From a virus (Duplodnaviria > Caudoviricetes), in the IMG/VR virus record IMGVR_UViG_3300050821_001527, positions 96,001 through 160,000 of that record: DNA of 64,000 nucleotides. One strand, 5' to 3'. The notes beneath the pieces were generated by a model. That model worked only from the letters and a program-made list of their open reading frames with translations, searched no databases and had not been told where the DNA came from. Shown one piece after another: positions 22,344 through 34,526 of the stretch; within the stretch, counting starts at the first letter, position 1, and each line of letters begins with the position of its first letter. The position numbers were made by a program, and so were the translations under genes.

Positions 22344-22437
22344 GGCCGGTGTCCCCATCGGGAGTCTGTAAAACTTCTATGCTTACAAATGTGATGGGAA
22401 GTTGCACCGAAGGAGCGTTACCTTCACCGCGCCACCA
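22344..22437 (+). tRNA. D-armless tRNA-Tyr(GTA)-like RNA
   Basis: Loop CTGTAAA, 10-nt D replacement, 31-nt variable region, T-loop AGCGTTA, ACCA. Confidence 0.6.
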
Positions 22438-22449
22438 ATTTCTTCTTGA

Positions 22450-22648
22450 CCGAAAACCAGACCTGTAAACCGAATGTCCCGGTAGGTTGCACGTATTGGT
22501 GAGTAAGAGGACACAGGAAGGAAAATTTTCATCCACTGGCGCACTGGCGCTAGTGCGAGATTCGGGGTGGGTGGCAATGAAGACCGAAGCCCCGACAACG
22601 CGAAACCTGCAAAAAGTGGTTTAACTACCGAGAGAGAGGACTCGGCGT
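22450..22648 (+). ncRNA. Unknown pseudoknotted structured RNA
   Basis: Crossing pairings CCGAA/TTCGG and GTAGGTT/AACCTGC, nested CCTG/CAGG and TGTCC/GGACA. Confidence 0.4.
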
Positions 22649-22651
22649 AAT

Positions 22652-22727
22652 GGTGGTATTGATGTAATAGTTAGCATCTTCCCCTGTGAAGGGAACTGTG
22701 CGGGTGCGAATCCCGTATATCACCCCA
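22652..22727 (+). tRNA. tRNA-His(GTG)
   Basis: G-1:C73, loop CTGTGAA, T-loop TGCGAAT. Confidence 0.9.
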
Positions 22728-22753
22728 ATTTCATTCACGTAGAACATGAAAGT

Positions 22754-22761
22754 GTGTAATA
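22754..22761 (+). promoter_or_regulatory. Phage GTGTAATA promoter motif
   Basis: 6 nt upstream of ATG 22768. Confidence 0.65.
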
Positions 22762-22767
22762 AAAGTT

Positions 22768-23214
22768 ATGAGCAGCGTTGACTCACTCGAAAACCACGAC
22801 CAGTTCCATTTGGAACAACTGCACAAGCTTTCCTGTCAAAGCGGCTCGAAGGACATTCTCGTTATTGACGATAGCACGGGCGACTTGATGGACATTCAGA
22901 AGATTATGAACCTCAAGTATGCAGACCAATTTCACGTAAGGTATTGTCTGGACGCTGAAAAGGGGATTGAGATTCTCAAGGAAAACAATTTCTTTTTGGT
23001 TTTGCTCGATTTCAAGATGCCGAAGTTGAACGGTCTTGAAGTAATCGAGACGGTAAACAAGATGAAGCAGAACGTTCCGTTCGTAGTTTTGACGGGATAC
23101 GGCGACCCATCCATGCGCGAAGCATTGACAAGATTGGGCGTAATGCTCCTGTTGGACAAGCCAATCACGGAGAAGAAGCTGGACATGCTCCTGACTTTGA
23201 CTCACGCGAAATAA
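22768..23214 (+). CDS. Stand-alone response-regulator receiver (CheY-like)
   Basis: ILVIDD, LLD.KMP..NG, VVLTG, DKP. Confidence 0.9.
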   Translation: MSSVDSLENHDQFHLEQLHKLSCQSGSKDILVIDDSTGDLMDIQKIMNLKYADQFHVRYCLDAEKGIEILKENNFFLVLLDFKMPKLNGLEVIETVNKMKQNVPFVVLTGYGDPSMREALTRLGVMLLLDKPITEKKLDMLLTLTHAK

Positions 23215-23219
23215 TTTCT

Positions 23220-23296
23220 GGCCGCATAGCTCAAATAGATAGAGCAGCACCCCGCGAAGGTGAAGGTTGTAGGTGCGACTCCTACTGTGGCTACCA
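23220..23296 (+). tRNA. tRNA-Arg(GCG)-like with 6-nt anticodon loop
   Basis: CACC-CGCGAA-GGTG lacks U33; rest of cloverleaf intact. Confidence 0.6.
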
Positions 23297-23493
23297 TTTT
23301 CCCGCATAGTCCGTTGAGCAGCCCCGTAGCAACGAGGAAACAAAAGCTTGATGGTTCAGCCAAGCCGTGCGCCAGCGCGGTATTTGCGTGGTGCGAGTCC
23401 ACGGGGAACGATTTATCCCCCTGCTGGTATAGTCCAGCGAAGTAGGTGAGGCTAACCTATGAGTGGTTCGTAACGCACAAGAGGGAATTTTAT

Positions 23494-23576
23494 GGGCATG
23501 TAACCGAAGCAGTCCTCGAAACTGATTAACCGTAATTATGTTGCAAATGTGGGTGAGATTCCCTCCATGCCTACCA
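23494..23576 (+). tRNA. D-armless tRNA-Arg(TCG)-like RNA
   Basis: GGGCATG/CATGCCT-ACCA, CAGT-CCTCGAA-ACTG, long variable region. Confidence 0.55.
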
Positions 23577-23662
23577 ATTTCTCTGTTTGACAATCGAGCC
23601 TAAATAGTCTGCACAGACGGCGCGGGTTCGTAGATGTTGTGCGAAACGGAGGATTCATTTCT

Positions 23663-23755
23663 GTTCCCGTAGCTGAAAGACAGCCGGTGCCCTTATAAAG
23701 CACTTAATCGCTAGATTGGCGTAAGACTCAGGAGCGTTACCTGACGGGAATACCA
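23663..23755 (+). tRNA. tRNA with TAT (Ile) anticodon and long variable arm
   Basis: Loop CTTATAA, D arm GCTG-AAAGA-CAGC, V hairpin TAATC/GATTG; 7/5 or 8/4 fold possible. Confidence 0.7.
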
Positions 23756-23762
23756 AATTTTA

Positions 23763-23846
23763 CGCATCGTGACATAAGCGCGAATAGCACAGCCACACGT
23801 CTCAAAAATGTGAGTTTTAAGGGTGCGAGTCCCTTCGATGCGACCA
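23763..23846 (+). tRNA. tRNA-Leu(CAA), short V, expanded D region
   Basis: Loop CTCAAAA, T-loop TGCGAGT. Confidence 0.7.
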
Positions 23847-23852
23847 ATTTAT

Positions 23853-23928
23853 GTGCCTATGATGGAATAGCATACATACCAGCCTCAGAAGTTGGGTTTT
23901 GCAGGTGCGAGTCCTGCTAGGCATACCA
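23853..23928 (+). tRNA. tRNA-Leu(CAG), short variable loop
   Basis: Loop CTCAGAA, V=GTTTT. Confidence 0.8.
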
Positions 23929-23933
23929 TTTCC

Positions 23934-24017
23934 CGCTCCGTGACCTTGTAGCGAACAGCACAGCTTGCCGTCTTAGACACGGTGGTTTTGCAGGTGCGAG
24001 TCCTGTCGGAGCGACCA
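23934..24017 (+). tRNA. tRNA-Leu(TAG), short V, expanded D region
   Basis: Loop CTTAGAC, T-loop TGCGAGT. Confidence 0.75.
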
Positions 24018-24022
24018 ATTTA

Positions 24023-24110
24023 GCCAGTGTGGTGAAAGAGCAGACACACCATCTTGAGAAGGTGGCGCGAATAAAGTAGCGTGTAGGTGCGAATCCTATC
24101 ACTGGCACCA
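24023..24110 (+). tRNA. tRNA-Leu(GAG)
   Basis: Loop TTGAGAA, long V arm. Confidence 0.9.
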
Positions 24111-24192
24111 ATTTCCTAATGGAAGGTCTGTTAGGACACAGTAGCAGTCGAGATTCTAACCGCCTCGCCGGGGCGTTGCTACACGGCATTAC

Positions 24193-24267
24193 GGTCTATT
24201 GTTGAATGAGTTATCATAGTTCCCTGTCACGGAGCAATAACGGGTGCGAGTCCCGTATAGACCGCCA
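24193..24267 (+). tRNA. tRNA-Asp(GTC)
   Basis: Loop CTGTCAC, G73. Confidence 0.9.
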
Positions 24268-24345
24268 TTTTACGGCTGAGTTAGCGATTCCTGCGCGTGG
24301 GAACGAGACGATTCACTTCGTTTAACTGATGAAGCCGCCAATTTT

Positions 24346-24422
24346 GGGATAGAAGGTAAAGTAGTGGAACCGTTCCGTTGTCTGCGGAAAAAAAGTGGGT
24401 GCGACTCCCATCTATCTCGCCA
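24346..24422 (+). tRNA. tRNA-Asp(GTC), atypical loop TTGTCTG
   Basis: Cloverleaf, G73, U37. Confidence 0.75.
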
Positions 24423-24517
24423 TTTTGTCAGAGAAGTCCGTCAACCATGCGGTTGACCCGTATGGAGAACGTCGAGTTCAGACATATTGTATAGCTGGCC
24501 ACTTAGGACTTCCGTTC

Positions 24518-24595
24518 AGTCAGTGAGGGAGTAAGATAACCCCGACGCCTGCAAAGCGTTTCGTATAGTCGGAGCATTACCGACACTGACTTCCA
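24518..24595 (+). tRNA. tRNA-Cys(GCA)
   Basis: Loop CTGCAAA, U73, T-loop AGCATTA. Confidence 0.85.
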
Positions 24596-24599
24596 TTTC

Positions 24600-24676
24600 G
24601 TCCTAATGGTGTAAGGGAATTACAACACGGTAGTCTTCGGACTACAGATGCAAGCCAACTATTGCAAGGGACTCCA
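24600..24676 (+). pseudogene. Degenerate tRNA-like gene with anticodon arm capped by C-TTCG-G
   Basis: D arm and CCA present; GTAGTC-TTCG-GACTAC; 8-nt T-loop. Confidence 0.45.
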
Positions 24677-24680
24677 ATTT

Positions 24681-24757
24681 CGGTTTGTCGCCTAGTGTTC
24701 ATGGCACTCGCCTTGGGAGCGAGCATAACGCGGGTTAAAATCCCGCCAAGCCGACCA
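24681..24757 (+). tRNA. tRNA-Pro(TGG)
   Basis: CGG start, loop CTTGGGA, T-loop TTAAAAT. Confidence 0.85.
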
Positions 24758-24765
24758 TTTTTTAG

Positions 24766-24843
24766 ACGGGGTATAATGTCAGCAGCTAGACGGCTCCCTT
24801 CGGAGGGGAGAGGCCGTGGGTGCGAATCCCACTACCCCGACCA
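24766..24843 (+). tRNA. tRNA-Pro(CGG)
   Basis: Loop TTCGGAG, T-loop TGCGAAT. Confidence 0.9.
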
Positions 24844-24847
24844 TTTA

Positions 24848-24919
24848 TGCAGGAAGAATGAGATTCAAGCGGGCCTCATAAGCCTACCCCCGTGGACGCG
24901 ACTTCCACTCCTGCTTCCA
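24848..24919 (+). tRNA. tRNA(CAT)-like, reduced D arm
   Basis: Loop CTCATAA, T-loop CGCGACT. Confidence 0.55.
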
Positions 24920-24963
24920 TTTTTTATCGAACAGAAACCGTTCTCCGATATAATAGATATTTA

Positions 24964-25041
24964 CGCGGGGTGGACAAGTAGTAAGTCGTTGGCCTCATAA
25001 GCCAAATATCGTCAGGTGCGATTCCTGACCTCACGCAACCA
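24964..25041 (+). tRNA. Initiator-type tRNA-fMet(CAT)
   Basis: CGCGGGG start, C1:A72 mismatch, loop CTCATAA. Confidence 0.8.
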
Positions 25042-25044
25042 TTT

Positions 25045-25461
25045 ATGGAAGACGCCGTTCTCAACACGCAAAAAGCCTTGGACACCGCATTGGCATCATT
25101 GAATGCGCTGGCTAAAAAAGATTACGTTCCTCCGACAACCCCCGACATTGACCCCGAAACTGAAATGCCGATTAAAGGGAATGGCACGGAAGAATATGAT
25201 ACCGAAGACGCTTACGAGGATGGGGAAGAAGCAGTCCGTCTGTGCATTGAAATTGCCCAGTTGAGGCTAGAGGTCGAGGGCCAGCCCCGCCGTGCTATCG
25301 TCAACACGGAAAAGGCGGCAGAAATCCGAGCAAGGGGAGCGATTGACAAGGTAAGACCAGAGCGTCACCTGAGCGTTTCTCCCGAACTTATCAAGAGTAT
25401 CGAACATTCCGTAGCTAAACCGGAAATGATGTTCTTCGTTTTGGAAGAACCCAAGGAATAA
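25045..25461 (+). CDS. Acidic hypothetical protein
   Basis: 138-aa ORF between tRNAs. Confidence 0.65.
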   Translation: MEDAVLNTQKALDTALASLNALAKKDYVPPTTPDIDPETEMPIKGNGTEEYDTEDAYEDGEEAVRLCIEIAQLRLEVEGQPRRAIVNTEKAAEIRARGAIDKVRPERHLSVSPELIKSIEHSVAKPEMMFFVLEEPKE

Positions 25462-25467
25462 GATTTC

Positions 25468-25542
25468 GCGTTGTTGGCAGAGAAGTGATGCGCTTGCCTT
25501 CCAAGCAAGTTTAAGTGGGAGCATTACCCACACAACGCTCCA
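25468..25542 (+). tRNA. tRNA-Gly(TCC)
   Basis: Loop CTTCCAA, U73. Confidence 0.9.
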
Positions 25543-25545
25543 ATT

Positions 25546-25970
25546 TGTCCGAAGCTATAATCCCCGTGCGTAATAGCACTAAGCGCAAGTAGGCCGAAAG
25601 GCAGAACCGTGATGGTGGATGAACTGCTCGTCTAAAATATCGGCTACATAATTTAGTCAGGTCGTCGGTCTGTCGTTGCGGTGAGCAATCACCAAGCCTA
25701 TGGGACGGCGGCTCGAAAAGGTATCCGTAAGCTGGCAGGAATCGCTTGTGCAAGATTCCACTACCGAAGGAGAATGCGGCGAAAGCCAAGTTCGTTCGCA
25801 CTTGTAGTAGGTCAGTCATCTCAGCCGAGGCAGGCATTTTCAAAATCGTTAGGGTTAGTCCAACCACGGTAAAACGTGAGAGGGGTCATAAAAGACTGCA
25901 AGCGTCACCCTGCCTAAAACCCCCTGTTGGTGAGTGGATAGTTGAAAACGAGGTCAGCGATGACCTGACT
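25546..25970 (+). ncRNA. Candidate large (~425 nt) structured ncRNA
   Basis: No credible ORF or tRNA; GNRA-capped hairpins at 25593, 25680, 25778, 25952. Confidence 0.55.
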
Positions 25971-25973
25971 TTT

Positions 25974-26049
25974 AGCCGCATGGTGAAATTACAATCACAC
26001 AATCCTGCGAAGATTGAAGTCCCGGTGAGATTCCGGGTGCTGGCTACCA
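25974..26049 (+). tRNA. tRNA-Arg(GCG)
   Basis: Loop CTGCGAA, T-loop TGAGATT. Confidence 0.85.
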
Positions 26050-26053
26050 TTTT

Positions 26054-26128
26054 GCGACATAGGTGTTTATAGATACACGCGAGTCTTCCAAACTTGAGTA
26101 GTGAGTGCGATACTCACACGTCGCTCCA
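26054..26128 (+). tRNA. tRNA-Gly(TCC)
   Basis: Loop CTTCCAA, U73. Confidence 0.85.
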
Positions 26129-26192
26129 ATTTATGCACCCAAAACTTGCAAGTTACTCGACCCATGAATCGAGTGTGGTGCAACCAATTTAT

Positions 26193-26267
26193 TCCCTAGT
26201 AGTGTCAAAGTAGCACGTCTCCCTGTTAAGGAGTTTAGTGTTGGTGCGAGTCCAACCTTCGGAACCA
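26193..26267 (+). tRNA. tRNA-Asn(GTT), mismatched acceptor
   Basis: Loop CTGTTAA. Confidence 0.7.
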
Positions 26268-26279
26268 TTTAGTCAGCAT

Positions 26280-26364
26280 TCCAGAGTAGGAGAATTGGTA
26301 AACCCAGCGGACTGTTAATCCGCCGCGAAAGCAACTGCTCGTTCAAGTCGAGCCTCTGGAGCCA
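26280..26364 (+). tRNA. tRNA-Asn(GTT) with long variable arm
   Basis: Loop CTGTTAA, V hairpin GC-GAAA-GC, canonical GG/TTC elbow, G73. Confidence 0.85.
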
Positions 26365-26474
26365 TTTTCAAGACATTTCCCCTGACGAAAGCTCTACGAT
26401 GTAGAACATCGCACCAGCAAGTCATGGTTACATGACGTGTCCGTGGACGCACGGAAGCGGGGAGTTTGAATTTT

Positions 26475-26552
26475 GCATCCGTCAACCAAACGCGTAAATG
26501 ACTCGGGCTTTTAACCCAAAGGATGTGGTCACGCAAGCCACCGGATGCACCA
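26475..26552 (+). tRNA. tRNA-Lys(TTT)
   Basis: Loop CTTTTAA, T-loop CACGCAA. Confidence 0.75.
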
Positions 26553-26670
26553 ATTTCTACCTGAACACAAGTGCTATGTCATCGAGCCAAGTCACGGTTA
26601 TTGTGTATCGTGAAAATTCCGTTGACAATGTAGCAATGCGCGAGAAAGACGCGCACGGGTTCCTTTTCAT

Positions 26671-26744
26671 AGGGATATAGTATAAAAGTAGAACGGCACC
26701 CTGACACGGTGAAGGCGAAGGAGCGTTACCTTCTATCCCTACCA
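26671..26744 (+). tRNA. tRNA-Val(GAC)
   Basis: Loop CTGACAC, T-loop AGCGTTA. Confidence 0.9.
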
Positions 26745-26750
26745 TTTTAT

Positions 26751-26831
26751 GAGAATCGAGACGCGGGTGCATATCCCGCCTGCCTGTTTAAATACTTGCA
26801 GTAGCTTAGTAGCAGAGCGCGATTCGTCTCC
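26751..26831 (+). ncRNA. Circularly permuted tRNA-like (Y-RNA-like) RNA 2
   Basis: GAATCG/CGATTC closing stem; T-arm, loop-closed CTGC/GCAG acceptor, then D arm TAGCTTAGTAGCAGAGC. Confidence 0.75.
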
Positions 26832-26838
26832 CTTTTAC

Positions 26839-26917
26839 GGAACGGTAACTCAAATGGGTCAAGAGTGTTCGCCCGATTAGCGAAAGGTTGTGGACTCCCA
26901 AGCCACTCGTTCTACCA
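26839..26917 (+). tRNA. tRNA-Ile(GAT), loop CCGATTA
   Basis: Cloverleaf with irregular T-loop. Confidence 0.65.
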
Positions 26918-26922
26918 ATCAC

Positions 26923-26995
26923 GGTTCCATACGATAAAGCAGTCCCCATGCCCGATTAGCGTGGTGTCTTGGTGCGAGTCCAAGTGGAACTACCA
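26923..26995 (+). tRNA. tRNA-Ile(GAT), loop CCGATTA
   Basis: GGTTCCA/TGGAACT, T-loop TGCGAGT. Confidence 0.7.
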
Positions 26996-27000
26996 TTTAC

Positions 27001-27076
27001 TGCCCTTTAGCTCATTCAGCAGAGCGGCGTCTTGATAAGGCGAAGGTGGTCGGGGCAGAGCCGACAAGGGCAACCA
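27001..27076 (+). tRNA. tRNA-Ile(GAT)
   Basis: Loop TTGATAA, T-loop GGCAGAG. Confidence 0.9.
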
Positions 27077-27079
27077 ATT

Positions 27080-27244
27080 ATGAAACCATACGGATTGACA
27101 AAGAAAATCCTACACAACCATCCCGATGTTCACCCGCCGAAGGGCTGGGTCAACTGGTGGGAAAGCGAAACGAGGGACTGTCTCCGCAAGAAAGCAGAAC
27201 GCCAACAGGCGAAAAAACAGATTTTACAAGATTTGGCTTCGTAG
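27080..27244 (+). CDS. Small basic hypothetical protein
   Basis: MKPYG start; stop TAG is nt 8-10 of tRNA-Lys. Confidence 0.6.
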   Translation: MKPYGLTKKILHNHPDVHPPKGWVNWWESETRDCLRKKAERQQAKKQILQDLAS

Positions 27245-27311
27245 CTCAAGCGTCAAGAGCAGCCGCCTTTTAAGCGGAAGCGTCCGGGCAGTCAATCCGG
27301 TGGGGCCACCA
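27235..27311 (+). tRNA. tRNA-Lys(TTT)
   Basis: Loop CTTTTAA, T-loop CAGTCAA. Confidence 0.85.
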
Positions 27312-27457
27312 ATTTATAAACACCTAGACCGTGTGCGATACCGGCATGGTTTCGTGAGTCGGCTATGTCGAAGCCGAAGAAGATTCGCGGGACTTGGAGT
27401 GTGAAAGAAGCACGGGTGTATTTTTTTGAATAAAAAGCGGATTCGTTTATCATAGGT

Positions 27458-27835
27458 ATGCAAAACGTTTATCTGAACCGCGACGAACTCCTGCCGATTG
27501 TCAAGGAGAACAAGCAAAAGCACGACAACATTTTTTCCACAGCCGTTTCCGGCTATTGGGTCAAGGCCGAAGAAATCCTGAACGGCAAACTGAACAAGGT
27601 CAAAGCCAAGCAGCAAGTTGACAATTACCTTGGACTCAGCTATCCCGAAGACCATTCTGATGAATATGACCGAGTAATCAGGATGCTGGAACTTTCGTCT
27701 GATGACAAGATTCAGCTTACGTCTTCCGAGTTTGATTGCTATGTTCGCAATCAATGGAACTGGCGCAAGGCGTTCTTGACGGTCAATTCAACATACATTT
27801 CGGACTGGAACCCCATTTCCGGGGCTTCATTCTAA
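27458..27835 (+). CDS. Conserved-looking phage hypothetical protein
   Basis: P.DHSDEYDRVIRMLE motif. Confidence 0.7.
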   Translation: MQNVYLNRDELLPIVKENKQKHDNIFSTAVSGYWVKAEEILNGKLNKVKAKQQVDNYLGLSYPEDHSDEYDRVIRMLELSSDDKIQLTSSEFDCYVRNQWNWRKAFLTVNSTYISDWNPISGASF

Positions 27836-27915
27836 CAGTCTTGGTCGAGGCGTGGGTTCGATTCCGCCGTGTGGCTCCATGCCGCACGTAGCTTAGTGGC
27901 AGAGCGCGACCTGTT
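27834..27915 (+). ncRNA. Circularly permuted tRNA-like (Y-RNA-like) RNA 3, Thr/Gly-type acceptor
   Basis: 3' half (GGTCG, TTCGATT T-loop, CGTGTGGC-TCCA), 1 nt, then 5' half (GCCGCACG, D arm, CGACC); ends pair AACAG/CTGTT. Confidence 0.8.
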
Positions 27916-27916
27916 C

Positions 27917-27991
27917 GGGGCTATGGTGCAGAAGTAAGCACGTTAGGTTCTCAACCTGAAAACGTCGGAGCGTTACCGACTAGCCCTACCA
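27917..27991 (+). tRNA. tRNA-Glu(CTC)
   Basis: Loop TTCTCAA, T-loop AGCGTTA. Confidence 0.85.
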
Positions 27992-27997
27992 ATTTAC

Positions 27998-28073
27998 GGG
28001 GGAGTGGTGCATAAGTAAGCACGGTTGGCTTTCACCCAGCAGAAGCTCGGAGCGTTACCGGCCTCCCCTACCA
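27998..28073 (+). tRNA. tRNA-Glu(TTC)
   Basis: Loop CTTTCAC. Confidence 0.85.
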
Positions 28074-28078
28074 TTTCT

Positions 28079-28156
28079 GTAGCTGACCAGTAAGTCGTCG
28101 TCTGCTCTGGCTTTCAACCAGATGTGTAGTGGGTGCGAGTCCCACCAGCTATGCCA
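28079..28156 (+). tRNA. tRNA-Glu(TTC)
   Basis: Loop CTTTCAA, irregular D arm. Confidence 0.75.
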
Positions 28157-28219
28157 TTTCCGGGGTGCGCCTCGTCAATTCGTTGATAGGACGGCGAATA
28201 TATCACCCCACTTTTTCTC

Positions 28220-28297
28220 GGTTCCGTGGTGTAAATGGATTAAGCACAAGAGACTTTGACCCTCTTAGCTCCGGGTGCCAGCCGGACGGAACTGCCA
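28220..28297 (+). tRNA. tRNA-Gln(TTG)
   Basis: Loop CTTTGAC. Confidence 0.8.
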
Positions 28298-28545: not shown

Positions 28546-28728
28546 ATGAACACTGAAAAAATCGTAGGTCAAGAATATCCAGCCGAATGTCTCGTTGATT
28601 CCAAGACGGGTCTGCCGGTGATGATTCGTCATACCGAAGATTCGGACAGGATTCGTCAGTTGGCGAAGGCCAGCGCGGAGAACCTTCTGAGGGCTTTGCG
28701 AGACGAAACGGGGCTGACGCCCATTTAA
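28546..28728 (+). CDS. Hypothetical protein (60 aa)
   Basis: ATG just after tRNA-Pro. Confidence 0.55.
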   Translation: MNTEKIVGQEYPAECLVDSKTGLPVMIRHTEDSDRIRQLAKASAENLLRALRDETGLTPI

Positions 28729-28733
28729 TTTAC

Positions 28734-28809
28734 GGGTCTATAACTCAAATAGATAGAGCCTCGCCTTCTAAGCGATGGGATTCAGGTGCGACTCCTGATA
28801 GACCTACCA
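28734..28809 (+). tRNA. tRNA-Arg(TCT)
   Basis: Loop CTTCTAA, T-loop TGCGACT. Confidence 0.9.
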
Positions 28810-28852
28810 TTTCTAGTATAGCCACATGGCGTTTCACAAGTGCTTCAACTAG

Positions 28853-28860
28853 GTGTAATT
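28853..28860 (+). promoter_or_regulatory. Phage GTGTAATT promoter motif
   Basis: 6 nt upstream of ATG 28867. Confidence 0.6.
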
Positions 28861-28866
28861 CTAGGT

Positions 28867-29343
28867 ATGGGCCACAAAGCTACAAACGAACAACTGGCGG
28901 TTATTATCGCAGAGTCTATTTCCTTCTCTGAGGCAATGAGAAAATGCGATATGAAGCCAAGGGGAGCGTCTTACCAATGGTTTCAAAAACGAGTTAAGAA
29001 GCTCGGATTAGACACGTCTCATTTTAAGGGATACTCGGCTGGTGGTCTGGAAAGGGCCAAGCAGATAAAGAAGCATTGGTCGGAGATTCTTGTTTTAGGA
29101 GACGGTTCGGGCAGAGAAAGGTCAGAGCCTCTTAGGAGGGCTTTTAAAGAATACTGCTTAGAGCAGGCAGTCCCACATATTTGCAACGTCTGCAACGTCT
29201 GCAAGATGGAACCAATTTGGAATGGCCAGCCAATGATATTTCAAATTGACCACATCAATTCAATCAATTTCGATAACAGACCGCTGAACCTTCAATGGAT
29301 TTGCGGCAACTGTCATCAACAGAAAAATTCTAACGGCTACTAA
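28867..29343 (+). CDS. HNH homing endonuclease
   Basis: LGLDTSHF.G N-terminus, CxxC, QIDHINSI..DNR..NL..ICGNCH. Confidence 0.9.
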   Translation: MGHKATNEQLAVIIAESISFSEAMRKCDMKPRGASYQWFQKRVKKLGLDTSHFKGYSAGGLERAKQIKKHWSEILVLGDGSGRERSEPLRRAFKEYCLEQAVPHICNVCNVCKMEPIWNGQPMIFQIDHINSINFDNRPLNLQWICGNCHQQKNSNGY

Positions 29344-29410
29344 GCTAATCAAGTGAAAGCAGCGGACTGAAAATCCGTGGAGTTTGGCGCGATACCAAAA
29401 GTAGCCACCA
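29335..29410 (+). tRNA. tRNA-Phe(GAA)
   Basis: Loop CTGAAAA, T-loop CGCGATA. Confidence 0.9.
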
Positions 29411-29415
29411 ATTTT

Positions 29416-29563
29416 GGGTATATGTTGTAATGGCAGCAAAAAGGGCGGGAGAGTCGAGGGAATAGCAGACCAACTATAGCTCTGTAAGCCTAGTAGCTCG
29501 ATTTGAAAACCTGAATACTCGTCTATACGAGTGGCCTCGGTTCGATTCCGGGTATATCCACCA
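29416..29563 (+). tRNA. tRNA with ~52-nt hairpin insert in the anticodon loop, long V arm, G3:U70
   Basis: GGGTATA/TATATCC-ACCA, D arm with GG, ACTCGT/ACGAGT V arm, TTCGATT T-loop; identity unresolved. Confidence 0.65.
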
Positions 29564-29567
29564 ATCT

Positions 29568-29646
29568 CCGTCAGTAGCTCAAATGTGGTAAGAGCGTTGG
29601 TTTGAAACACCAAAGGTTGTCGTTCCCCAAACGACTTGACGGGCCA
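29568..29646 (+). tRNA. tRNA-Phe(GAA)
   Basis: Loop TTGAAAC, T-loop TCCCCAA. Confidence 0.75.
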
Positions 29647-29666
29647 TTTTAAGTGTATAATTCTGT

Positions 29667-29921
29667 GTGGAAGCACTAGCAAAACAGACCCTTCAATGTG
29701 ATGACTGCAAGAAAGTCATTGACACCCGCCGCGATACTGACCTTGAGGACAGCATCCAAGCGAAGTTGAAGAACCTCAAGGGCGACCCGCAGGTTTATCA
29801 TTTCTGCGCGGAAAGCTGCCTTGCCTCCTTTTTGCAGAAGCGCATCAAGAAAAAGAACGCCCGCGCCTCATACGACGCTTTCGCCTACGAGATTGATTTG
29901 TCCGGGGCAAAGGTTAAATAA
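29667..29921 (+). CDS. Small Cys-containing hypothetical protein
   Basis: CDDC, FC..SC. Confidence 0.6.
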   Translation: MEALAKQTLQCDDCKKVIDTRRDTDLEDSIQAKLKNLKGDPQVYHFCAESCLASFLQKRIKKKNARASYDAFAYEIDLSGAKVK

Positions 29922-30130
29922 TGAAATTTTCATCTTTCGCCAAGCTTGTGTTGATTTTCGGGGCAGCGATTATGCTCCTTGATGGTTGCGCTCTCGTTGG
30001 TTGTAATCACGCATTCCCGCAAGTCGAATGGTATTGGTCAGCCGATGCTAAAGCCTGTCGCAAGGAACACGCGATGGAAGCCCAGTGGCGACAGTCCGCA
30101 ACAAACAATTTAAGGCAGTCGTTCAAGTGA
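29921..30130 (+). CDS. Small lipoprotein-like protein
   Basis: Signal peptide with LDGC; stop lies in next tRNA. Confidence 0.55.
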   Translation: MKFSSFAKLVLIFGAAIMLLDGCALVGCNHAFPQVEWYWSADAKACRKEHAMEAQWRQSATNNLRQSFK

Positions 30131-30184
30131 ACAAGATGCTCTCATAAGGCGTCAAGGATGGAGCGTTACCATCGTCTGCTACCA
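30114..30184 (+). tRNA. tRNA(CAT) elongator Met or Ile2
   Basis: Loop CTCATAA, 4-nt D loop. Confidence 0.75.
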
Positions 30185-30189
30185 ATTTC

Positions 30190-30266
30190 GGATTCGTAGC
30201 TCAAATGCTAAGAGCAGCCGGTTCTTACCCGGAAGGTTGTGGCTCGTCAAGCCACCGAGTCCACCA
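30190..30266 (+). tRNA. tRNA-Lys(CTT)
   Basis: Loop TTCTTAC, T-loop TCGTCAA. Confidence 0.85.
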
Positions 30267-30344
30267 TTTATGGCCGTCAGCCTGAACCCCATCAGGCTAG
30301 TCCACCAAGGACGATGCAGAGGGTTATGCAACGGCATCCATTTC

Positions 30345-30416
30345 GCCAGTGCCGTCAGCACGGATTCGAGTTTTGTAAACTTGAAGCAGTCGGGGCAGCA
30401 CCGACCTCTGGCTCCA
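30345..30416 (+). tRNA. tRNA-Thr(TGT)
   Basis: Loop TTTGTAA, CAGC D tetraloop, U73. Confidence 0.8.
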
Positions 30417-30420
30417 TTTC

Positions 30421-30556
30421 GCCGTTCTAGTTCAATGTAGAACACGTCTCTCGAAAAGCCGATAGGCTCCCTGAACGGAGCAGTTAGTGGGGTGTTTGCC
30501 CTGCGATGTAATAAGGCCAGATGAACTGCTGGTGCCAAGTCCAGCGAACGGCTCCA
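30421..30556 (+). tRNA. Thr-type tRNA body with ~62-nt insert in the anticodon loop
   Basis: GCCGTTC/GAACGGC-TCCA, D arm GTTC/GAAC, anticodon stem CGTCT/AGATG. Confidence 0.7.
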
Positions 30557-30626
30557 AACTAGGCTGCGCGTGGTAGCCTCAGAGGGGTGAAAGTCCCTAA
30601 CCACGACAAATTTAATTCAATTTAAT

Positions 30627-30701
30627 CGCCCGTTCTGAATAATAGTAGTTCGTCGCGCTCTGAACGCGAAGGCGGTGGGGCAGAACCATCACGGGTGGCC
30701 A
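30627..30701 (+). tRNA. tRNA-Gln(CTG)
   Basis: Loop CTCTGAA, G73. Confidence 0.85.
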
Positions 30702-30706
30702 TTTAC

Positions 30707-30780
30707 GCGGGATTAGCTCAAAAGTAGAGCGAGTCGTTTACACCGACAGGACGAGGGAGCATTACCTTCATTCCGCACCA
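30707..30780 (+). tRNA. tRNA-Val(TAC)
   Basis: Loop TTTACAC. Confidence 0.9.
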
Positions 30781-30785
30781 TTTAC

Positions 30786-30862
30786 GCAATCGAAGCTACA
30801 GCAGACCGGCTCCCGGCTCTTAACCGGATTTGGTGAGGTTGCAACTACCTCCGATTGCACCA
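30786..30862 (+). tRNA. tRNA-Lys(CTT)
   Basis: Loop CTCTTAA, T-loop TGCAACT. Confidence 0.8.
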
Positions 30863-30866
30863 TTTC

Positions 30867-30946
30867 GCGGTCTTAGCTTAAACGGATAAAAGCCCTTCGC
30901 TCTTAACGAATGAGATGTCGCCCTCCAAGCAGGACAGACCGCACCA
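30867..30946 (+). tRNA. tRNA-Lys(CTT), aberrant T arm
   Basis: Loop CTCTTAA, 3-bp T stem with large loop. Confidence 0.65.
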
Positions 30947-31006
30947 ATTTGATTACACCCCTGCCGCCTCTTGACAATGCGTAATCGCAGGGGTTTTTCC
31001 ATTTAT

Positions 31007-31092
31007 GGCCGTGTGTAGCGTAAGGGAAAAGCAGAACCGATAGACTTAAAATCTGTTGCTACTTGAGGGTGCAAGACCGTCCACGGCTACCA
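31007..31092 (+). tRNA. tRNA-Leu(TAA), expanded D region, 8-nt V
   Basis: Loop CTTAAAA, T-loop TGCAAGA. Confidence 0.75.
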
Positions 31093-31111
31093 ATTTAGTG
31101 TAATGTTTGTC

Positions 31112-31189
31112 ATGGACAACTCAAAGCCTTGGTGGAAAGAAGAATGGTTTGAAACTTGGCTGAAAATTGCCCGCCGTCAGTTCTCGTAA
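31112..31189 (+). CDS. 25-aa Trp-rich micropeptide
   Basis: ATG 6 nt after GTGTAATG (31098-31105). Confidence 0.45.
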   Translation: MDNSKPWWKEEWFETWLKIARRQFS

Positions 31190-31193
31190 ATGC

Positions 31194-31201
31194 GTGTAAT
31201 A
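31194..31201 (+). promoter_or_regulatory. Phage GTGTAATA promoter motif
   Basis: 6 nt upstream of ATG 31208. Confidence 0.65.
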
Positions 31202-31207
31202 AGAAGT

Positions 31208-31966
31208 ATGGGAAAGTTACTAAGACTCGGAAGAAAGCAAGCCCGCTTCGACAAGCGCACTTTGAAGCTGGAAGACTACATTTCTGCTGATTTACAGTTC
31301 CCCCGCAAGGTTGTTTGGCAGAACAAGATTCCAAATTGGGGCATGATGCTTAACGACCAGTTGGGAGATTGCACCTGTGCCGCTGCCGGTCACATGATTA
31401 TGAACTGGACGGCCAATGCGGGCGTCCTCGTCACCCCAAACGACAACCAAATTCTTTCCGCTTACGAAGCCGTTGGGGGATACAACCCAAATGCCGCTCC
31501 CGACGCCAATGGAAACAACCCAACCGATAACGGTGCCGTTGAACTTGACGTTTTGAAGTATTGGCAGGGAACCGGAATCGCCGGTCACAAAATCGGGGCT
31601 TACGTCAGCATTGACCCGAAGAACAGACGCCACTTGAAGTTGGCTATCTGGCTGTTTGGGGGAATTTACACAGGTGTCAACCTCACGCAAGCGGACATGG
31701 ACGCCACCAACGCAAACCAGCCTTGGAAATACACCACCGGTTCCTCGATTGGCGGTCACGCCATTCCTGCCTTGGGATTCAACCAGCACGGCTTTCAATT
31801 CATTACATGGGGAGCCGTTCAAACGGCCACTCCTGAATGGGTCGCCAACCAAACCGAAGAAGTTTACGCCTTGATTTCCGCAGATTGGCTTGAAAACAAT
31901 GGCAATGCTCCCTCTGGTTTTGATGCTCAACAACTTGCCGCCGACTTAAAAAGCGTCCAAAACTAA
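31208..31966 (+). CDS. Papain-like (C1-type) cysteine peptidase
   Basis: DQLGDCTCAA catalytic Cys, GGHAI catalytic His, ITWG. Confidence 0.8.
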   Translation: MGKLLRLGRKQARFDKRTLKLEDYISADLQFPRKVVWQNKIPNWGMMLNDQLGDCTCAAAGHMIMNWTANAGVLVTPNDNQILSAYEAVGGYNPNAAPDANGNNPTDNGAVELDVLKYWQGTGIAGHKIGAYVSIDPKNRRHLKLAIWLFGGIYTGVNLTQADMDATNANQPWKYTTGSSIGGHAIPALGFNQHGFQFITWGAVQTATPEWVANQTEEVYALISADWLENNGNAPSGFDAQQLAADLKSVQN

Positions 31967-32010
31967 TTCAAAATATTTGCTTGGGCCAAGCCATCCGGGT
32001 ATAATATGGC

Positions 32011-33357
32011 ATGAGTCCGTCGTCTAATGCCGTTCAGCCGCTCAAGGTAGTTTTTTGCACTACCTGCAAGGGCCGCGTAAGTCACATCAAGAAAACCCTC
32101 CCCAAGAATTTGGCCGATAATCCCGGCGCGACCTTTATCCTTCTGGATTACAATGATAGTGGTGAATTAGCTTACCACGTCCGCAACGCCTGCCAGTCCG
32201 AAATTAAAGAGGGCAGGCTGGTGTATTATCAATACCGAGACAATGTTCCCTTCCGCATGGCTCACGCCAAAAACATGGCGCACAGGCTCGGAATCATGGA
32301 AGGCGCGGATATTCTGGTGAACTTGGACGCCGACAATCGCACGGGCGAAGGCTTCGCTGAATACATCGCGGAAAACTTCACCCGCACCCGCAACGACCCG
32401 CAGGAAATTTTCATGTGGAGCAGGATGATTAAAGGGGTTCTGAAACGCGGAATCACCGGGCGCATTGTGGTCAGCAAAAACGCTTTTCTTCTCGCTGGCG
32501 GATACGACGAACAGTATGCCACTTACTCCCCGGACGATAAAGATTTTGAAGCCCGCTTACGCAGACTGGGATTCTGTGCCCAAGAGATTGACAGCAAGTA
32601 TCTGGACGCGGTATATCACGACGACAACGTAAGATTCAAGGAATACGCCCATTTGCTTGAGACGAGCGCAGCATACGAAACCCCCTGCATCTCTCCGCAC
32701 AACCGCGTAGTCAATAACGGTAAATTTGGTTGCGGGGTTGTTTACAAGAATTTCGACGAGACTCCAATCACGCTTGCTCCGGTTCCTACCCGTATTTTTG
32801 GCATCGGGATGCACAAGACCGCAACGACCTCTTTAAGCGAAGCCCTGACCATCCTTGGGCTAAAGTCGGGTCATTGGGAACACCCGCGCTGGGCTAGACA
32901 AGTCTGGTCTGACATGAAGAATGTCGGTAGCTCTCCATCCGTGGAAAAGTATTATGCGCTTAGTGATTTGCCAATCGGAATTCTGTTTAGAGAATTGGAC
33001 GTGGCTTATCCGGGGTCGAAGTTCATCCTGACTGTCCGCGATGAATATGAATGGTTGAAGTCGGTTGAGAAACACTTTGATAGAAACATCAATCCCTACC
33101 GTAATTCATGGGACAACGATGCCTTTACCCACAGACTACACAACGAAATCTATGGACAGAGAAAATTCTCTTACCGTGTGTTCGTGGAGAGATACAGGAA
33201 GCACAACGCGGAAGTCTTGGAGTATTTCAAGGACAGACCGAATGATTTGCTGGTTATGAACGTTGACGATAAGACTGGATGGACAGAGCTATGCGCCTTT
33301 TTGGGCCAGCCAGTTCCTTCTATGAGCTATCCGAGAAAGTTCGTGACCAAGAAATAA
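32011..33357 (+). CDS. Glycosyltransferase (GT2/GT7-like) fused to P-loop sulfotransferase
   Basis: N-terminal LDAD, GGYDE..DD.DF..RL; C-terminal IFGIGMHKTATTSL, P.SKFILTVR, W..LC.FL. Confidence 0.85.
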   Translation: MSPSSNAVQPLKVVFCTTCKGRVSHIKKTLPKNLADNPGATFILLDYNDSGELAYHVRNACQSEIKEGRLVYYQYRDNVPFRMAHAKNMAHRLGIMEGADILVNLDADNRTGEGFAEYIAENFTRTRNDPQEIFMWSRMIKGVLKRGITGRIVVSKNAFLLAGGYDEQYATYSPDDKDFEARLRRLGFCAQEIDSKYLDAVYHDDNVRFKEYAHLLETSAAYETPCISPHNRVVNNGKFGCGVVYKNFDETPITLAPVPTRIFGIGMHKTATTSLSEALTILGLKSGHWEHPRWARQVWSDMKNVGSSPSVEKYYALSDLPIGILFRELDVAYPGSKFILTVRDEYEWLKSVEKHFDRNINPYRNSWDNDAFTHRLHNEIYGQRKFSYRVFVERYRKHNAEVLEYFKDRPNDLLVMNVDDKTGWTELCAFLGQPVPSMSYPRKFVTKK

Positions 33358-33370
33358 ATTGAATTTTATT

Positions 33371-33460
33371 GGAAGATAAAGTAGTGAGGCAGCTACAACG
33401 CGGTGCTAACGCGATTGCCCCTCTAAAGGGGGTGGGGTTCGAGTCCTCTATCTTCCGCCA
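33371..33460 (+). tRNA. tRNA-Ser(GCT)
   Basis: Loop GTGCTAA, long V, TTC T-loop, G73. Confidence 0.9.
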
Positions 33461-33465
33461 AATTT

Positions 33466-33678
33466 ATGACCACTAACGAAAAAATACTAGCGACACTCGG
33501 CGAGATGCCAGCGGGCGCGAAAATCATGTATTTCGCATTTGACGGCGACACGGGAGAGCTTTTGTCTGCTGTATATTTCAACAAGACGTATTTCCTGAAT
33601 GGACGAGAGGACGTGGCCGAAAAAGCTGCCGAACGCTTGGGTTCGGAAGTCTGCTCCAAGATGCCAGAAGCTCCATAA
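33466..33678 (+). CDS. Hypothetical protein
   Basis: ATG right after tRNA-Ser. Confidence 0.6.
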   Translation: MTTNEKILATLGEMPAGAKIMYFAFDGDTGELLSAVYFNKTYFLNGREDVAEKAAERLGSEVCSKMPEAP

Positions 33679-33718
33679 ATTTCTTGACTTCCCATGAAAA
33701 TTTTCATAGGATAATGGG

Positions 33719-34432
33719 GTGTTAATCAAGACTTACAAGGCCAGCGATGAAGTAAAAATCGTTACGATAAACGTGACGAAATTTCCACTGGTCATAATCA
33801 CAGACAGCCATACGAACGTAGCCAACGTCCGTCAACTCAAGGAGTTGTATCCAGACAGTCCGTTCGTTAGTCTCGGAGACATTACTTTTCTCTTTGCCAA
33901 ACCGGGCGAAAAATACAACGCAAGGTCTGTCCAGTATTTCATTGACAACAAAATCCCCTGCCTCAAGGGAAACCATGAAGAACACCTTGTCTCCTGCGCG
34001 GCCTCTGATAACGGGGACAGTCTGGTGATTTTCAAGGCCATCCCGCGATTCGACGAGCATTCCAGCCTGTATGACAAATACGACCTGTCGCAGCAGCATA
34101 CGGATTATCTCAAGGGTCTGCCAATGGGCTTCAAGCTGGTTTTGCCGAATAAGGACGAGTATCTTTGCTTCCATAACCGTCCGTCCGATTTGTGGAGTTT
34201 CACAGAGGAAGCCTTTACACAAGAAGCCTTTGAAAAGACCTACCCGCTTTCGGAGCGAACCAAGTCGGTTATCATTGGCCACAATCATCGCCATTTTGTC
34301 AAGCAATATCCTTCCGGCAAGAGCCTGACGTGTATCGGCAGGTTGAGCGTTGACGGCGATTATGCGCTCTTGACCGAGCGAGGGATTGAGCAAAAAAGGC
34401 TCCCGAAGTCCTTGACTTACTTAGAAAAGTAA
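33719..34432 (+). CDS. Calcineurin-like metallophosphoesterase
   Basis: DSH, GD, GNHE, FH, GHNH motifs. Confidence 0.85.
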   Translation: MLIKTYKASDEVKIVTINVTKFPLVIITDSHTNVANVRQLKELYPDSPFVSLGDITFLFAKPGEKYNARSVQYFIDNKIPCLKGNHEEHLVSCAASDNGDSLVIFKAIPRFDEHSSLYDKYDLSQQHTDYLKGLPMGFKLVLPNKDEYLCFHNRPSDLWSFTEEAFTQEAFEKTYPLSERTKSVIIGHNHRHFVKQYPSGKSLTCIGRLSVDGDYALLTERGIEQKRLPKSLTYLEK

Positions 34433-34448
34433 CGTAGTATCATTTTAC

Positions 34449-34526
34449 GCATCAGTATTGGCACTCTTTCCTAAAGAGGACGCGCATAATTGGACGATGT
34501 GGGTTCGACTCCCTCCTGATGCACCA
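34449..34526 (+). tRNA. D-armless tRNA-Arg(CCT)-like RNA
   Basis: GCATCAG/CTGATGC-ACCA, CTCT-TTCCTAA-AGAG, 8-nt D replacement, 20-nt V. Confidence 0.6.

What the first reader, a model, noticed from the sequence alone, without database searches (positions are those of the whole stretch)
22344..34526. D-armless tRNAs with long variable regions, including the only clear Tyr tRNA
Seen: Tyr(GTA) 22344-22437, Arg(TCG) 23494-23576 and Arg(CCT) 34449-34526 have an acceptor, 7-nt anticodon loop, T-arm and CCA, but only 8-10 nt in place of the D arm and a 20-31-nt variable region. The two Arg copies share the T stem GTGGG/CCCTC. In Tyr the D remnant pairs with the V region (CCCATC/GATGGG). D-armless tRNAs are established in mitochondria, not in bacteria or phages. 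ArgRS normally needs A20, which is absent here.
Basis: partly seen in the sequence, partly recalled or inferred. Interest (0 to 1): 0.75.

Follow-up and report, generated by a model that had tools for sequence, protein, structure and literature searches.

The report
Three phage tRNAs with rewired D-arm
Three odd tRNA genes (one Tyr, two Arg) in this soil jumbo phage belong to two widespread phage tRNA families in which the D-loop and one D-stem strand lie behind the anticodon arm; gene finders miss this non-cloverleaf layout and I found no paper on it, though this scan has met it before in other phages.

Summary
"D-armless" is the wrong word. The two Arg genes belong to a large phage family (about 137 distinct genes on about 100 loci; Arg, Ile, rarely Lys). 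In it, the few bases after U8 pair with two segments of the long "variable" region. These segments flank a D-loop-like motif, TAAYNGG-N. The helix covaries as strongly as the classical stems (10-52: AU 34, GC 34). The base after GG is A in Arg and U/C in Ile, as expected for position 20. So A20 is present in Arg(CCT) and unclear in Arg(TCG).

The Tyr gene is a divergent member of a second family. There the 5' strand pairs with a strand inside the variable-arm loop, forming a pseudoknot. A model built without the window ranks it first in the 64 kb (27.4 bits).

The phage encodes no ArgRS or TyrRS. The three genes fill anticodon slots that no other gene in the array fills (GTA, TCG, CCT). Their D-like motifs match their own T-loop types. 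Arg(TCG) is the weakest (C33, no GG). Function is inferred, not shown.

This scan found both families earlier on other DNA (70 or more genomes). I found no publication describing them.

The parts
22344..22437 (+). tRNA-Tyr(GTA) gene, 94 nt with encoded CCA; divergent member of the rewired, pseudoknotted Tyr family
   Evidence: Best hit in the window of model R2, which was built from 13 homologs without the window: 27.4 bits, E about 5e-5, full length, no non-standard pair. Aligned in A3.
22354..22359 (+). Tyr strand X (CCCATC), in place of the D arm; pairs with 22393-22398
   Evidence: 6 standard pairs. In the family the same helix reads ACGGCA/TGTCGT with compensatory variants. Helix 2: 5 of 6 pairs change on both sides.
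22360..22378 (+). Tyr anticodon arm GGGAGT-CTGTAAA-ACTTCT; anticodon GTA at 22368-22370
   Evidence: The loop TCTGTAAAA is invariant in the family alignment.
22380..22406 (+). Tyr variable arm. Stem TGC (22380-22382) pairs with GCA (22404-22406). It encloses spacer TTACAAATGT, strand Y GATGGG (22393-22398) and the D-loop-like AAGTT (22399-22403). X/Y crosses this stem, which makes a pseudoknot.
   Evidence: Family stem CYGC/GCRG: column 37-69 reads UA 11, CG 3. The ACAAAT spacer is shared. AAGT is the D-loop core of the array's other tRNAs with T loop AGCGTTA.
22409..22434 (+). Tyr T arm GAAGG-AGCGTTA-CCTTC, acceptor 3' strand with bulged C at 22430, and A73
   Evidence: The T arm is identical to that of tRNA-Val(GAC) at 26671.
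23494..23576 (+). tRNA-Arg(TCG) gene, 83 nt with CCA; rewired Arg/Ile family; the most deviant copy
   Evidence: R1 68.1 bits, but it is one of R1's training sequences. RF00005 22.2 bits. Deviations: C33, G.A at 27-43, no GG in the D-like loop, T loop TGAGATT.
23502..23506 (+). Arg(TCG) strand X: AAC (9-11) pairs with GTT at 23540-23542; CG (12-13) pairs with CG at 23531-23532
   Evidence: All 5 pairs are standard. The same columns covary in 71 homologs.
23533..23539 (+). Arg(TCG) D-loop-like bulge TAATTAT (family: TAAYNGGA)
   Evidence: Alignment A4.
34449..34526 (+). tRNA-Arg(CCT) gene, 78 nt with CCA; rewired Arg/Ile family, short-X subtype
   Evidence: R1 69.2 bits, but it is one of R1's training sequences. 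RF00005 26.5 bits. Closest to L016 and L081.
34459..34462 (+). Arg(CCT) strand X (TGGC); T11-A38 and G12-C37 pair with GCA at 34484-34486; the third pair is G.G, or C14-G36 with a bulged G
   Evidence: In 55 short-X homologs positions 11-13 pair with the 3 nt 5' of TA[AG] in 92% of cells, against 59% in shuffles. In this copy only 2-3 pairs form.
34487..34494 (+). Arg(CCT) D-loop-like motif TAATTGGA, with G18 G19 and A20 equivalents
   Evidence: Invariant TAA and GGA in the family. It goes with a canonical T loop TTCGACT, as in the array's other GG/TTC tRNAs.

Best explanation
The three genes encode tRNAs with a rewired core.

Arg layout (shared with Ile and rare Lys genes in other phages): the chain runs acceptor, U8, 5-6 nt (strand X), anticodon arm, short spacer, Y1, a 7-9 nt D-loop-like bulge (TAAYNGG-N), Y2, linker, T arm. 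X pairs with Y2 (a 3-bp D-stem equivalent) and with Y1 (a 2-3 bp extension of the anticodon stem). The anticodon arm therefore branches out of the D arm instead of following it.

Tyr layout: X pairs with a 6-nt strand inside the loop of the variable arm. A D-loop-like stretch follows. The fold is a pseudoknot.

Inferred, not shown:
- The stacked X/Y and anticodon helices have about the length of the D stem plus anticodon stem.
- The relocated GG (or this phage's own AG) still docks on the T loop, so an L-like shape and position 20 are kept.
- Host ArgRS and TyrRS charge these tRNAs, since the phage has neither enzyme.
- The tRNAs supply the array's only Tyr, Arg-CCU (AGG is 9.1 per 1000 codons) and Arg-UCG decoders.
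- Arg(TCG) may be impaired.
- Why the layout is kept is open. Escape from host nucleases that read the normal D arm is a guess.
For: Family membership:
- A T-arm pattern taken from the window hits 85 viral stretches, of which 22 are the same layout, all with Arg anticodons.
- Model R1 then finds Ile (GAT, TAT, CAT) members in the same phages.
- 137 distinct genes on about 100 loci were parsed.

Structure of the Arg/Ile family:
- In 71 aligned genes, 10-52 reads AU 34, GC 34, UA 1.
- 11-51 reads CG 50, UA 9, UG 7, AU 3.
- 13-39 reads GC 62, CG 5, AU 4.
- Over all 22 pairs of the tested structure, classical stems included, 97.2% of cells pair. Shuffles give 66.8% (0 of 500 reach the observed value); slid partners give 40-49%. 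Helix 9-11/51-53 alone is 97.2% paired and helix 12-13/39-40 is 100%.
- My fixed-offset counts agree.

Identity:
- GGA occurs in 25-27 of 30 Arg members and 0 of 11 Ile members (these have GGU/GGC), p about 1e-6.
- This matches A20 for bacterial Arg identity and U20 for Ile identity (PMC9976931).

Tyr family:
- 13 homologs show compensatory changes in X/Y and in the variable stem.
- R2, built without the window, ranks 22344-22434 first.

Elbow:
- Across about 44 ordinary tRNAs of the array, T loops reading NGC go with D loops holding AG, and T loops reading .TC go with GG.
- The rewired genes follow the same rule.

Unique slots and enzymes:
- The whole 203-kb record has no other Tyr tRNA. The finders give only Arg GCG (twice) and TCT.
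- There is no ArgRS or TyrRS.

Plausibility: E. coli HisRS, EF-Tu and the ribosome accept an artificial tRNA without a D arm (PMC11551756).
Against: - No direct evidence of expression, processing, charging or decoding exists. The RNA-library contigs that cover the array have about the depth of a DNA run and may be DNA carry-over.
- Single-sequence folding does not favour the proposed Tyr fold. The minimum free energy is -29.0 kcal/mol against -26.1 for the proposed nested part, and the z-score is -1.09.
- The Tyr acceptor has a bulged C. Its variable stem is only 3 bp.
- The R2 E-value comes from a shortened calibration and is rough.
- Arg(TCG) has C33, a mismatch closing the anticodon stem and no GG.
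- Arg(CCT) forms only 2-3 X/Y1 pairs and has no clear Y2.
- Part of the family set was retrieved with patterns that fix CGTAA, GGA or ACAAAT, so those letters cannot count as conservation.
- The 3D reading is inference only.
Confidence: 0.72

Rival explanations
1. They are decaying tRNA pseudogenes: leftovers of duplications in a fast-evolving array that lost the D arm and picked up junk in the variable region.
For: Arg(TCG) has C33, a G.A at 27-43, no GG and an odd T loop. Tyr has a bulged acceptor and no finder calls it. The Tyr T arm is a copy of the Val T arm. No close relative of this phage could be fetched to test conservation at these exact places.
Against: The same layout, with covarying helices, recurs in more than 100 unrelated viral contigs, so it is selected. 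The three genes fill anticodon slots that no other gene of the array fills. Their D-like motifs match their own T-loop class. All three keep 7-bp acceptors and an encoded CCA.
Confidence: 0.1
2. They are tRNA mimics that do not serve translation. They could be decoys or sponges for host anticodon nucleases or other tRNA-targeting defences, or regulators.
For: Arg, Ile, Lys and Tyr tRNAs are classes that known tRNA-targeting toxins attack (my own knowledge, not tested here). Notes from other first-stage readers, which I did not check, say that this phage also carries permuted tRNA mimics. A changed core could alter recognition.
Against: Anticodon loops, position-20 identity, discriminator plus CCA and T loops are kept as a synthetase, EF-Tu and the ribosome would need. 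The genes complete the anticodon set rather than duplicate it. A decoy would be expected to copy the host tRNA's normal shape.
Confidence: 0.1
3. One reading: truly D-armless, flexible tRNAs of the mitochondrial kind, with an unstructured connector and no D-loop/T-loop elbow.
For: There is no hairpin between positions 9 and 26. Arg(TCG) has lost both the GG and the UUC of the T loop.
Against: The connector is base-paired with the variable region, with strong covariation. A D-loop-like motif with GG and a class-specific base at 20 is conserved. T loops are canonical in nearly all family members. The genes are 78-94 nt long, not miniaturised.
Confidence: 0.06

Closest known systems
Canonical bacterial and phage tRNA-Arg and tRNA-Ile (class I cloverleaf, Rfam RF00005)
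   Same: 7-bp acceptor, anticodon arm with a CU-NNN-AA loop, T arm with UUCGA, U8, a GG motif, A20 (Arg) or U20 (Ile), and NCCA. Ordinary Arg tRNAs with the same T arm occur in the same pattern search (L009, L015, L082).
   Different: The D loop and the 3' strand of the D stem lie after the anticodon arm. There is no position 26 and no 5-nt variable loop. The genes score below Rfam's gathering score. ARAGORN misses them or gives a wrong anticodon, for example ccg instead of ACG in Vibrio phage PG07.
Bacterial class II tRNA-Tyr (E. coli tyrT/tyrU type)
   Same: Anticodon loop CUGUAAA, A73, and a long variable arm with a stem.
   Different: There is no D hairpin. The strand after position 9 pairs with a strand inside the variable-arm loop, giving a pseudoknot, and the D-loop-like stretch sits there too.
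Metazoan mitochondrial D-armless tRNA-Ser(AGY) and the artificial mini HisT (PMC11551756)
   Same: No D hairpin between acceptor and anticodon arm. They show that translation can use such tRNAs.
   Different: Those tRNAs are shortened (about 60 nt), have an unpaired connector and lose the D/T elbow. Here the RNA is as long as or longer than a normal tRNA, the connector is paired, and the elbow motifs are kept.
Allo-tRNAs and tRNA-Sec with 8/4 or 9/3 acceptor/T branches (PMC5389517)
   Same: Natural non-standard tRNA designs found by metagenome mining, some of them in phages.
   Different: Those keep the cloverleaf order of arms and change only stem lengths. Here the order of elements along the chain is changed.
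Circularly permuted tRNA genes of red algae and archaea (PMC3218864)
   Same: tRNA elements occur in a non-standard order in the gene.
   Different: There, processing restores a normal cloverleaf. Here no circular permutation of the gene gives a cloverleaf, and the 5' and 3' ends are the normal acceptor ends.

Membership tests
tRNA, Rfam RF00005 (cloverleaf) | Score at or above the curated gathering score (29 bits) | tested here: not met
   26.5 bits (34449), 22.2 bits (23494), and no hit at E up to 10 for 22344.
tRNA, Rfam RF00005 (cloverleaf) | D hairpin between positions 9 and 26 | tested here: not met
   The 15 model positions are replaced by 4-5 nt in the cmscan alignments.
tRNA, Rfam RF00005 (cloverleaf) | 7-bp acceptor, anticodon arm with 7-nt loop and U33, T arm, NCCA | tested here: met
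   Met in Tyr (with one bulged C) and in Arg(CCT). Arg(TCG) has C33 and a G.A at 27-43.
   Arg(TCG): AAC/GTT, and the family covaries. Arg(CCT) belongs to the short-X subtype, where no Y2 pairing is evident.
   Arg(TCG): CG/CG. Arg(CCT): TG/CA plus G.G, so 2 of 3 pairs. The family pairs in 92-100% of cells.
   Arg(CCT) has TAATTGGA: met. Arg(TCG) has TAATTAT: no GG, although it is compatible with A18.G55/U19-A56 given its T loop TGAGATT.
   27.4 bits, E about 5e-5 (rough calibration), the best hit in the window, with all modelled pairs standard.
   CCCATC/GATGGG. The spacer is TTACAAATGT. The stem TGC/GCA has 3 bp against 4 in the family.
   The window has AAGTT and T loop AGCGTTA. This is the phage's own elbow type, seen in six ordinary tRNAs of the array.
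Mitochondrial-type D-armless tRNA | Unpaired D-replacement connector, shortened molecule, and loss of the D/T elbow | tested here: not met
   The connector is paired with covariation, the genes are 78-94 nt long, and the elbow motifs are kept in two of three genes.

The most novel reading that the evidence does not exclude
Phages widely use working tRNAs whose chain threads the L-shaped core in a different order. In the Arg/Ile/Lys type the anticodon arm branches from inside the D arm. In the Tyr type the core is a pseudoknot with the variable arm. These tRNAs are charged by ordinary host synthetases through a relocated position 20 and elbow. This would be the first natural non-cloverleaf tRNAs in a bacterial translation system. 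In this phage the relocated D-like loops have co-evolved with three different T-loop types, which would be in-genome evidence for the elbow contact.
Probability: 0.5. Interest if true: 0.85.

Novelty: new variant of a known kind. Interest (0 to 1): 0.68.

Why it matters
If these RNAs work in translation, the cloverleaf order of arms is not a requirement of bacterial synthetases, EF-Tu, RNase P or the ribosome. In that case phage tRNA inventories are systematically undercounted. Here a "Tyr-less" array would in fact be complete. Family members occur in cultured phages, such as the T5-like Vibrio phage vB_VpS_PG07 and Microbacterium phages, so the question can be tested directly. The designs could also serve as scaffolds for orthogonal tRNAs. 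They may also explain how phage tRNAs escape host tRNA-directed nucleases.

Tried and rejected
- Close relatives of this phage: searches with two array-embedded proteins found none in viral contigs and only distant response regulators (27-40% identity) in metagenomes. Orthologs at the exact places could therefore not be compared.
- blastn of 7.9 kb of the array against cultured phages hit only ordinary tRNAs.
- ARAGORN in mitochondrial mode and at 80% thresholds does not find the three genes.
- Single-sequence folding is uninformative. For Tyr the z-score is -1.09. The minimum-free-energy folds of the two Arg genes do not even give the anticodon arm.
- A translocated D hairpin within the variable region was rejected. 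Y1 and Y2 are not complementary to each other and both covary with X.
- A third X2/Y1 pair (position 14) was rejected, with only 36 of 67 cells paired.
- For the short-X subtype I tested a Y2 next to the T stem. Position 9 pairs with the last variable-region base in 45 of 55 cells and position 10 with the one before it in 29 of 55, with no covariation. I left it open.
- RNA-library contigs cover the array at about DNA depth, which is no proof of transcription.
- Four literature searches and two reviews gave no description of the layout.
- No ArgRS or TyrRS domain occurs in the 203-kb record.
- Pfam on seven array-embedded ORFs gave nothing that bears on tRNA charging.


Full report
**Context.** The window is bases 96001-160000 of a 202,882-bp IMG/VR virus record, estimated 91% complete. 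Soil metagenomes and metatranscriptomes hold it. It carries a tmRNA (12618-13001) and a + strand tRNA array from about 20.7 to 37.8 kb. ARAGORN tRNAs there and Rfam about 29. ARAGORN's mitochondrial mode calls about 50 on the + strand of the array. Most T loops of the array read NGC instead of UUC.

**Observation.**
- Rfam's tRNA model aligns 34449-34523 (26.5 bits) and 23494-23573 (22.2 bits) end to end. The D arm is deleted and there is a 16-20 nt insert before the T arm. Both scores are below the gathering score of 29.
- No finder sees 22344-22437.
- The shared Arg T stem has a U.U mismatch.
- The Tyr acceptor needs a bulged C.
- Arg(TCG) has C33 and a G.A pair closing the anticodon stem.

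**The Arg genes belong to a large family.**
- The T-arm pattern shared by the two genes matches 85 stretches of IMG/VR. Of these, 22 have the same layout, and every one has an Arg anticodon: TCT, CCT, TCG or ACG.
- I built a covariance model from these using only the three classical stems (R1). It finds further copies in all 27 viral records searched, including genes with Ile-type anticodons GAT, TAT and CAT.
- The same kind of pattern found only 14 places in one genome each of 185,579 prokaryote species. All were in MAGs. Eleven hits in nine loci are real members, several inside 19-27-gene tRNA arrays and one on a 780-kb contig.
- I parsed 137 distinct genes on about 100 loci: Arg 115, Ile 19, CAT 1, Lys 1, Tyr 1.
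- Cultured phages carry members too. In the T5-like Vibrio phage vB_VpS_PG07 the gene lies between tRNA-Ile and tRNA-Pro. R1 scores it at 49.6 bits. ARAGORN calls it with a wrong anticodon.

**Structure of the Arg/Ile family.**
- After U8 come 5-6 nt (strand X) and then the anticodon arm.
- After the arm come a short spacer, Y1, the motif TAAYNGG-N, Y2, a linker (often GNAAAU) and the T arm.
- In 71 aligned long-X genes, positions 9-11 pair with Y2 and positions 12-13 pair with Y1.
- Pair 10-52 reads AU 34, GC 34, UA 1. Pair 11-51 reads CG 50, UA 9, UG 7, AU 3. Pair 13-39 reads GC 62, CG 5, AU 4.
- The whole structure pairs in 97.2% of cells. Shuffles give 66.8% (0 of 500 reach the observed value) and slid partners give 40-49%.
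- Counts at fixed offsets, made without fitting, agree: 0.896 against 0.777 in shuffles.
- In 55 short-X genes, positions 11-13 pair with Y1 in 92% of cells against 59% in shuffles.
- The D-like loop is therefore a bulge between two halves of one helix that stacks on the anticodon stem. Put another way, the anticodon arm branches from inside the D arm.
- A hairpin within the variable region is excluded.

**Identity.**
- In the sets whose retrieval did not fix these letters, the base after GG is A in 25 of 30 Arg genes by script. By eye it is 27, because two script misses are regex artefacts.
- It is never A in the 11 Ile genes, which have U or C (p about 1e-6).
- A20 is the main bacterial Arg determinant and U20 is an Ile determinant (PMC9976931).
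- Arg(TCG) has TAATTAT.

**The Tyr gene.**
- The parser turned up one Tyr(GTA) gene of the same kind (L151). Notes from earlier reports of this scan mentioned a pseudoknotted Tyr family.
- A pattern built from the anticodon loop, an ACAAAT spacer and the T loop found 13 homologs.
- Their layout is: acceptor, UA, X (6 nt), anticodon arm, variable stem 5' strand (CYGC), NUYAACAAAU, Y (6 nt), A-N-N-G-G-N, variable stem 3' strand (GCRG), UAR, T arm.
- X/Y crosses the variable stem.
- Five of six X/Y pairs and one variable-stem pair show changes on both sides. The sample is small.
- The window gene aligns along its whole length: ATGC, TTACAAATGT, GATGGG, AAGTT, GCAC. Its X/Y reads CCCATC/GATGGG where the family has ACGGCA/TGTCGT.
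- A model built from the 13 homologs alone (R2) gives 22344-22434 as the best hit of the window: 27.4 bits, E about 5e-5 (rough), no non-standard pair.
- The two rewired Arg genes come next, ahead of every ordinary tRNA.

**Signs of function in this phage.**
1. The whole record has no other Tyr tRNA. The finders give only Arg GCG (twice) and Arg TCT. The three genes therefore fill unique slots.
2. AGG is a common codon, at 9.1 per 1000.
3. There is no ArgRS or TyrRS domain in the record, so host enzymes would have to charge these tRNAs.
4. In about 44 ordinary tRNAs of the array, T loops reading NGC go with D loops holding AG, and T loops reading .UC go with GG.
5. The rewired genes obey the same rule:
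   - Tyr has AAGU with AGCGUUA. Its T arm is identical to that of Val(GAC).
   - Arg(CCT) has UUGGA with UUCGACU.
   - Arg(TCG) has UAAUUAU with UGAGAUU, which is compatible with A18.G55 and U19-A56.

   This is indirect evidence that the relocated loop still meets the T loop.
6. E. coli's translation machinery accepts an artificial tRNA without a D arm (PMC11551756).

**Limits.**
- Nothing here shows expression or charging. RNA-library contigs cover the array at about DNA depth.
- Single-sequence folding does not favour the Tyr fold.
- Arg(TCG) is the most deviant and may be impaired.
- Arg(CCT) forms only 2-3 X/Y1 pairs.
- Parts of the family sets were retrieved with patterns that fix some letters.
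- No close relative of this phage could be fetched.

**Known or new.**
- I found no paper that describes this layout. A 2024 paper states that all known bacterial tRNAs are cloverleafs.
- This scan has reported both families before on other DNA. 76 notes in at least 70 genomes match the words for the Arg/Ile type, and several match the Tyr type. One note says that part of such a claim fell on a later check, without saying which part. For that reason I do not claim "phage-only" or "first".
- What this window adds:
  - three rewired genes of two types in one array;
  - a divergent Tyr member that carries the phage's own elbow type;
  - the elbow rule as in-genome support for the tertiary contact.

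**Verdict.** The "D-armless, no A20" reading is partly supported. Best explanation: these are rewired tRNAs, probably working ones for Tyr and Arg(CCU) and doubtful for Arg(UCG).

Noticed in passing
window 25652-25971: A raiA-like RNA: Rfam RF03072 gives 54.9 bits with E 3e-11, below its gathering score of 101.3. In two soil RNA libraries its contig depth is far above that of its surroundings (242 against 0-4, and 70 against about 10). One RNA contig joins 25971 back to 25652, which could mean a circular or tandem form.
   Followed up: partly
window 20682-37825: Most tRNAs of the array have T loops reading NGC (G55) together with D loops holding AG instead of GG. A minority keep GG with UUC. 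The two types covary across about 44 genes.
   Followed up: partly
window 23663-23755: A 93-nt tRNA-Ile(TAT) with a normal D arm and a long, class II-like variable arm. Ile genes with long variable hairpins (GAGAUAAC..UCAAA) also occur in the other phages, both in the normal and in the rewired layout.
   Followed up: no
window 22768-23214: A 148-aa response-regulator receiver domain gene (PF00072, 66.7 bits) sits inside the tRNA array, between the Tyr and Arg(TCG) genes.
   Followed up: no
window 12618-13001: A phage-encoded tmRNA (Rfam 140.5 bits) with tag peptide ANKVALRNAVDCGVVRGFAAFAMA. Its 3' tRNA-like part weakly matches R1 through ...CGUAAGUGGAC before the T arm.
   Followed up: no
L265:7308-7383 (CAVXNL010000012.1, 780-kb contig of a Planctomycetaceae MAG): A rewired Arg(TCT) family member (R1 68.8 bits) lies on a chromosome-sized contig with no other tRNA within 8 kb. 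The family may not be confined to phage-sized DNA. I did not check for a prophage.
   Followed up: no
L095:1425-1493 and L102 (- strand), 1425-1493 in reverse-complement coordinates: Another unusual tRNA type with anticodon CAT and a 3-bp D stem with a 4-nt loop (GUUAUUGGAAUAC). ARAGORN misses it. It sits next to rewired genes in two phages.
   Followed up: no
L284:1194-1276 (Vibrio phage vB_VpS_PG07, NC_048041.1): The RefSeq record annotates no tRNA in this cluster. ARAGORN calls the rewired Arg(ACG) gene as Arg(ccg), a wrong anticodon caused by forcing a cloverleaf.
   Followed up: partly
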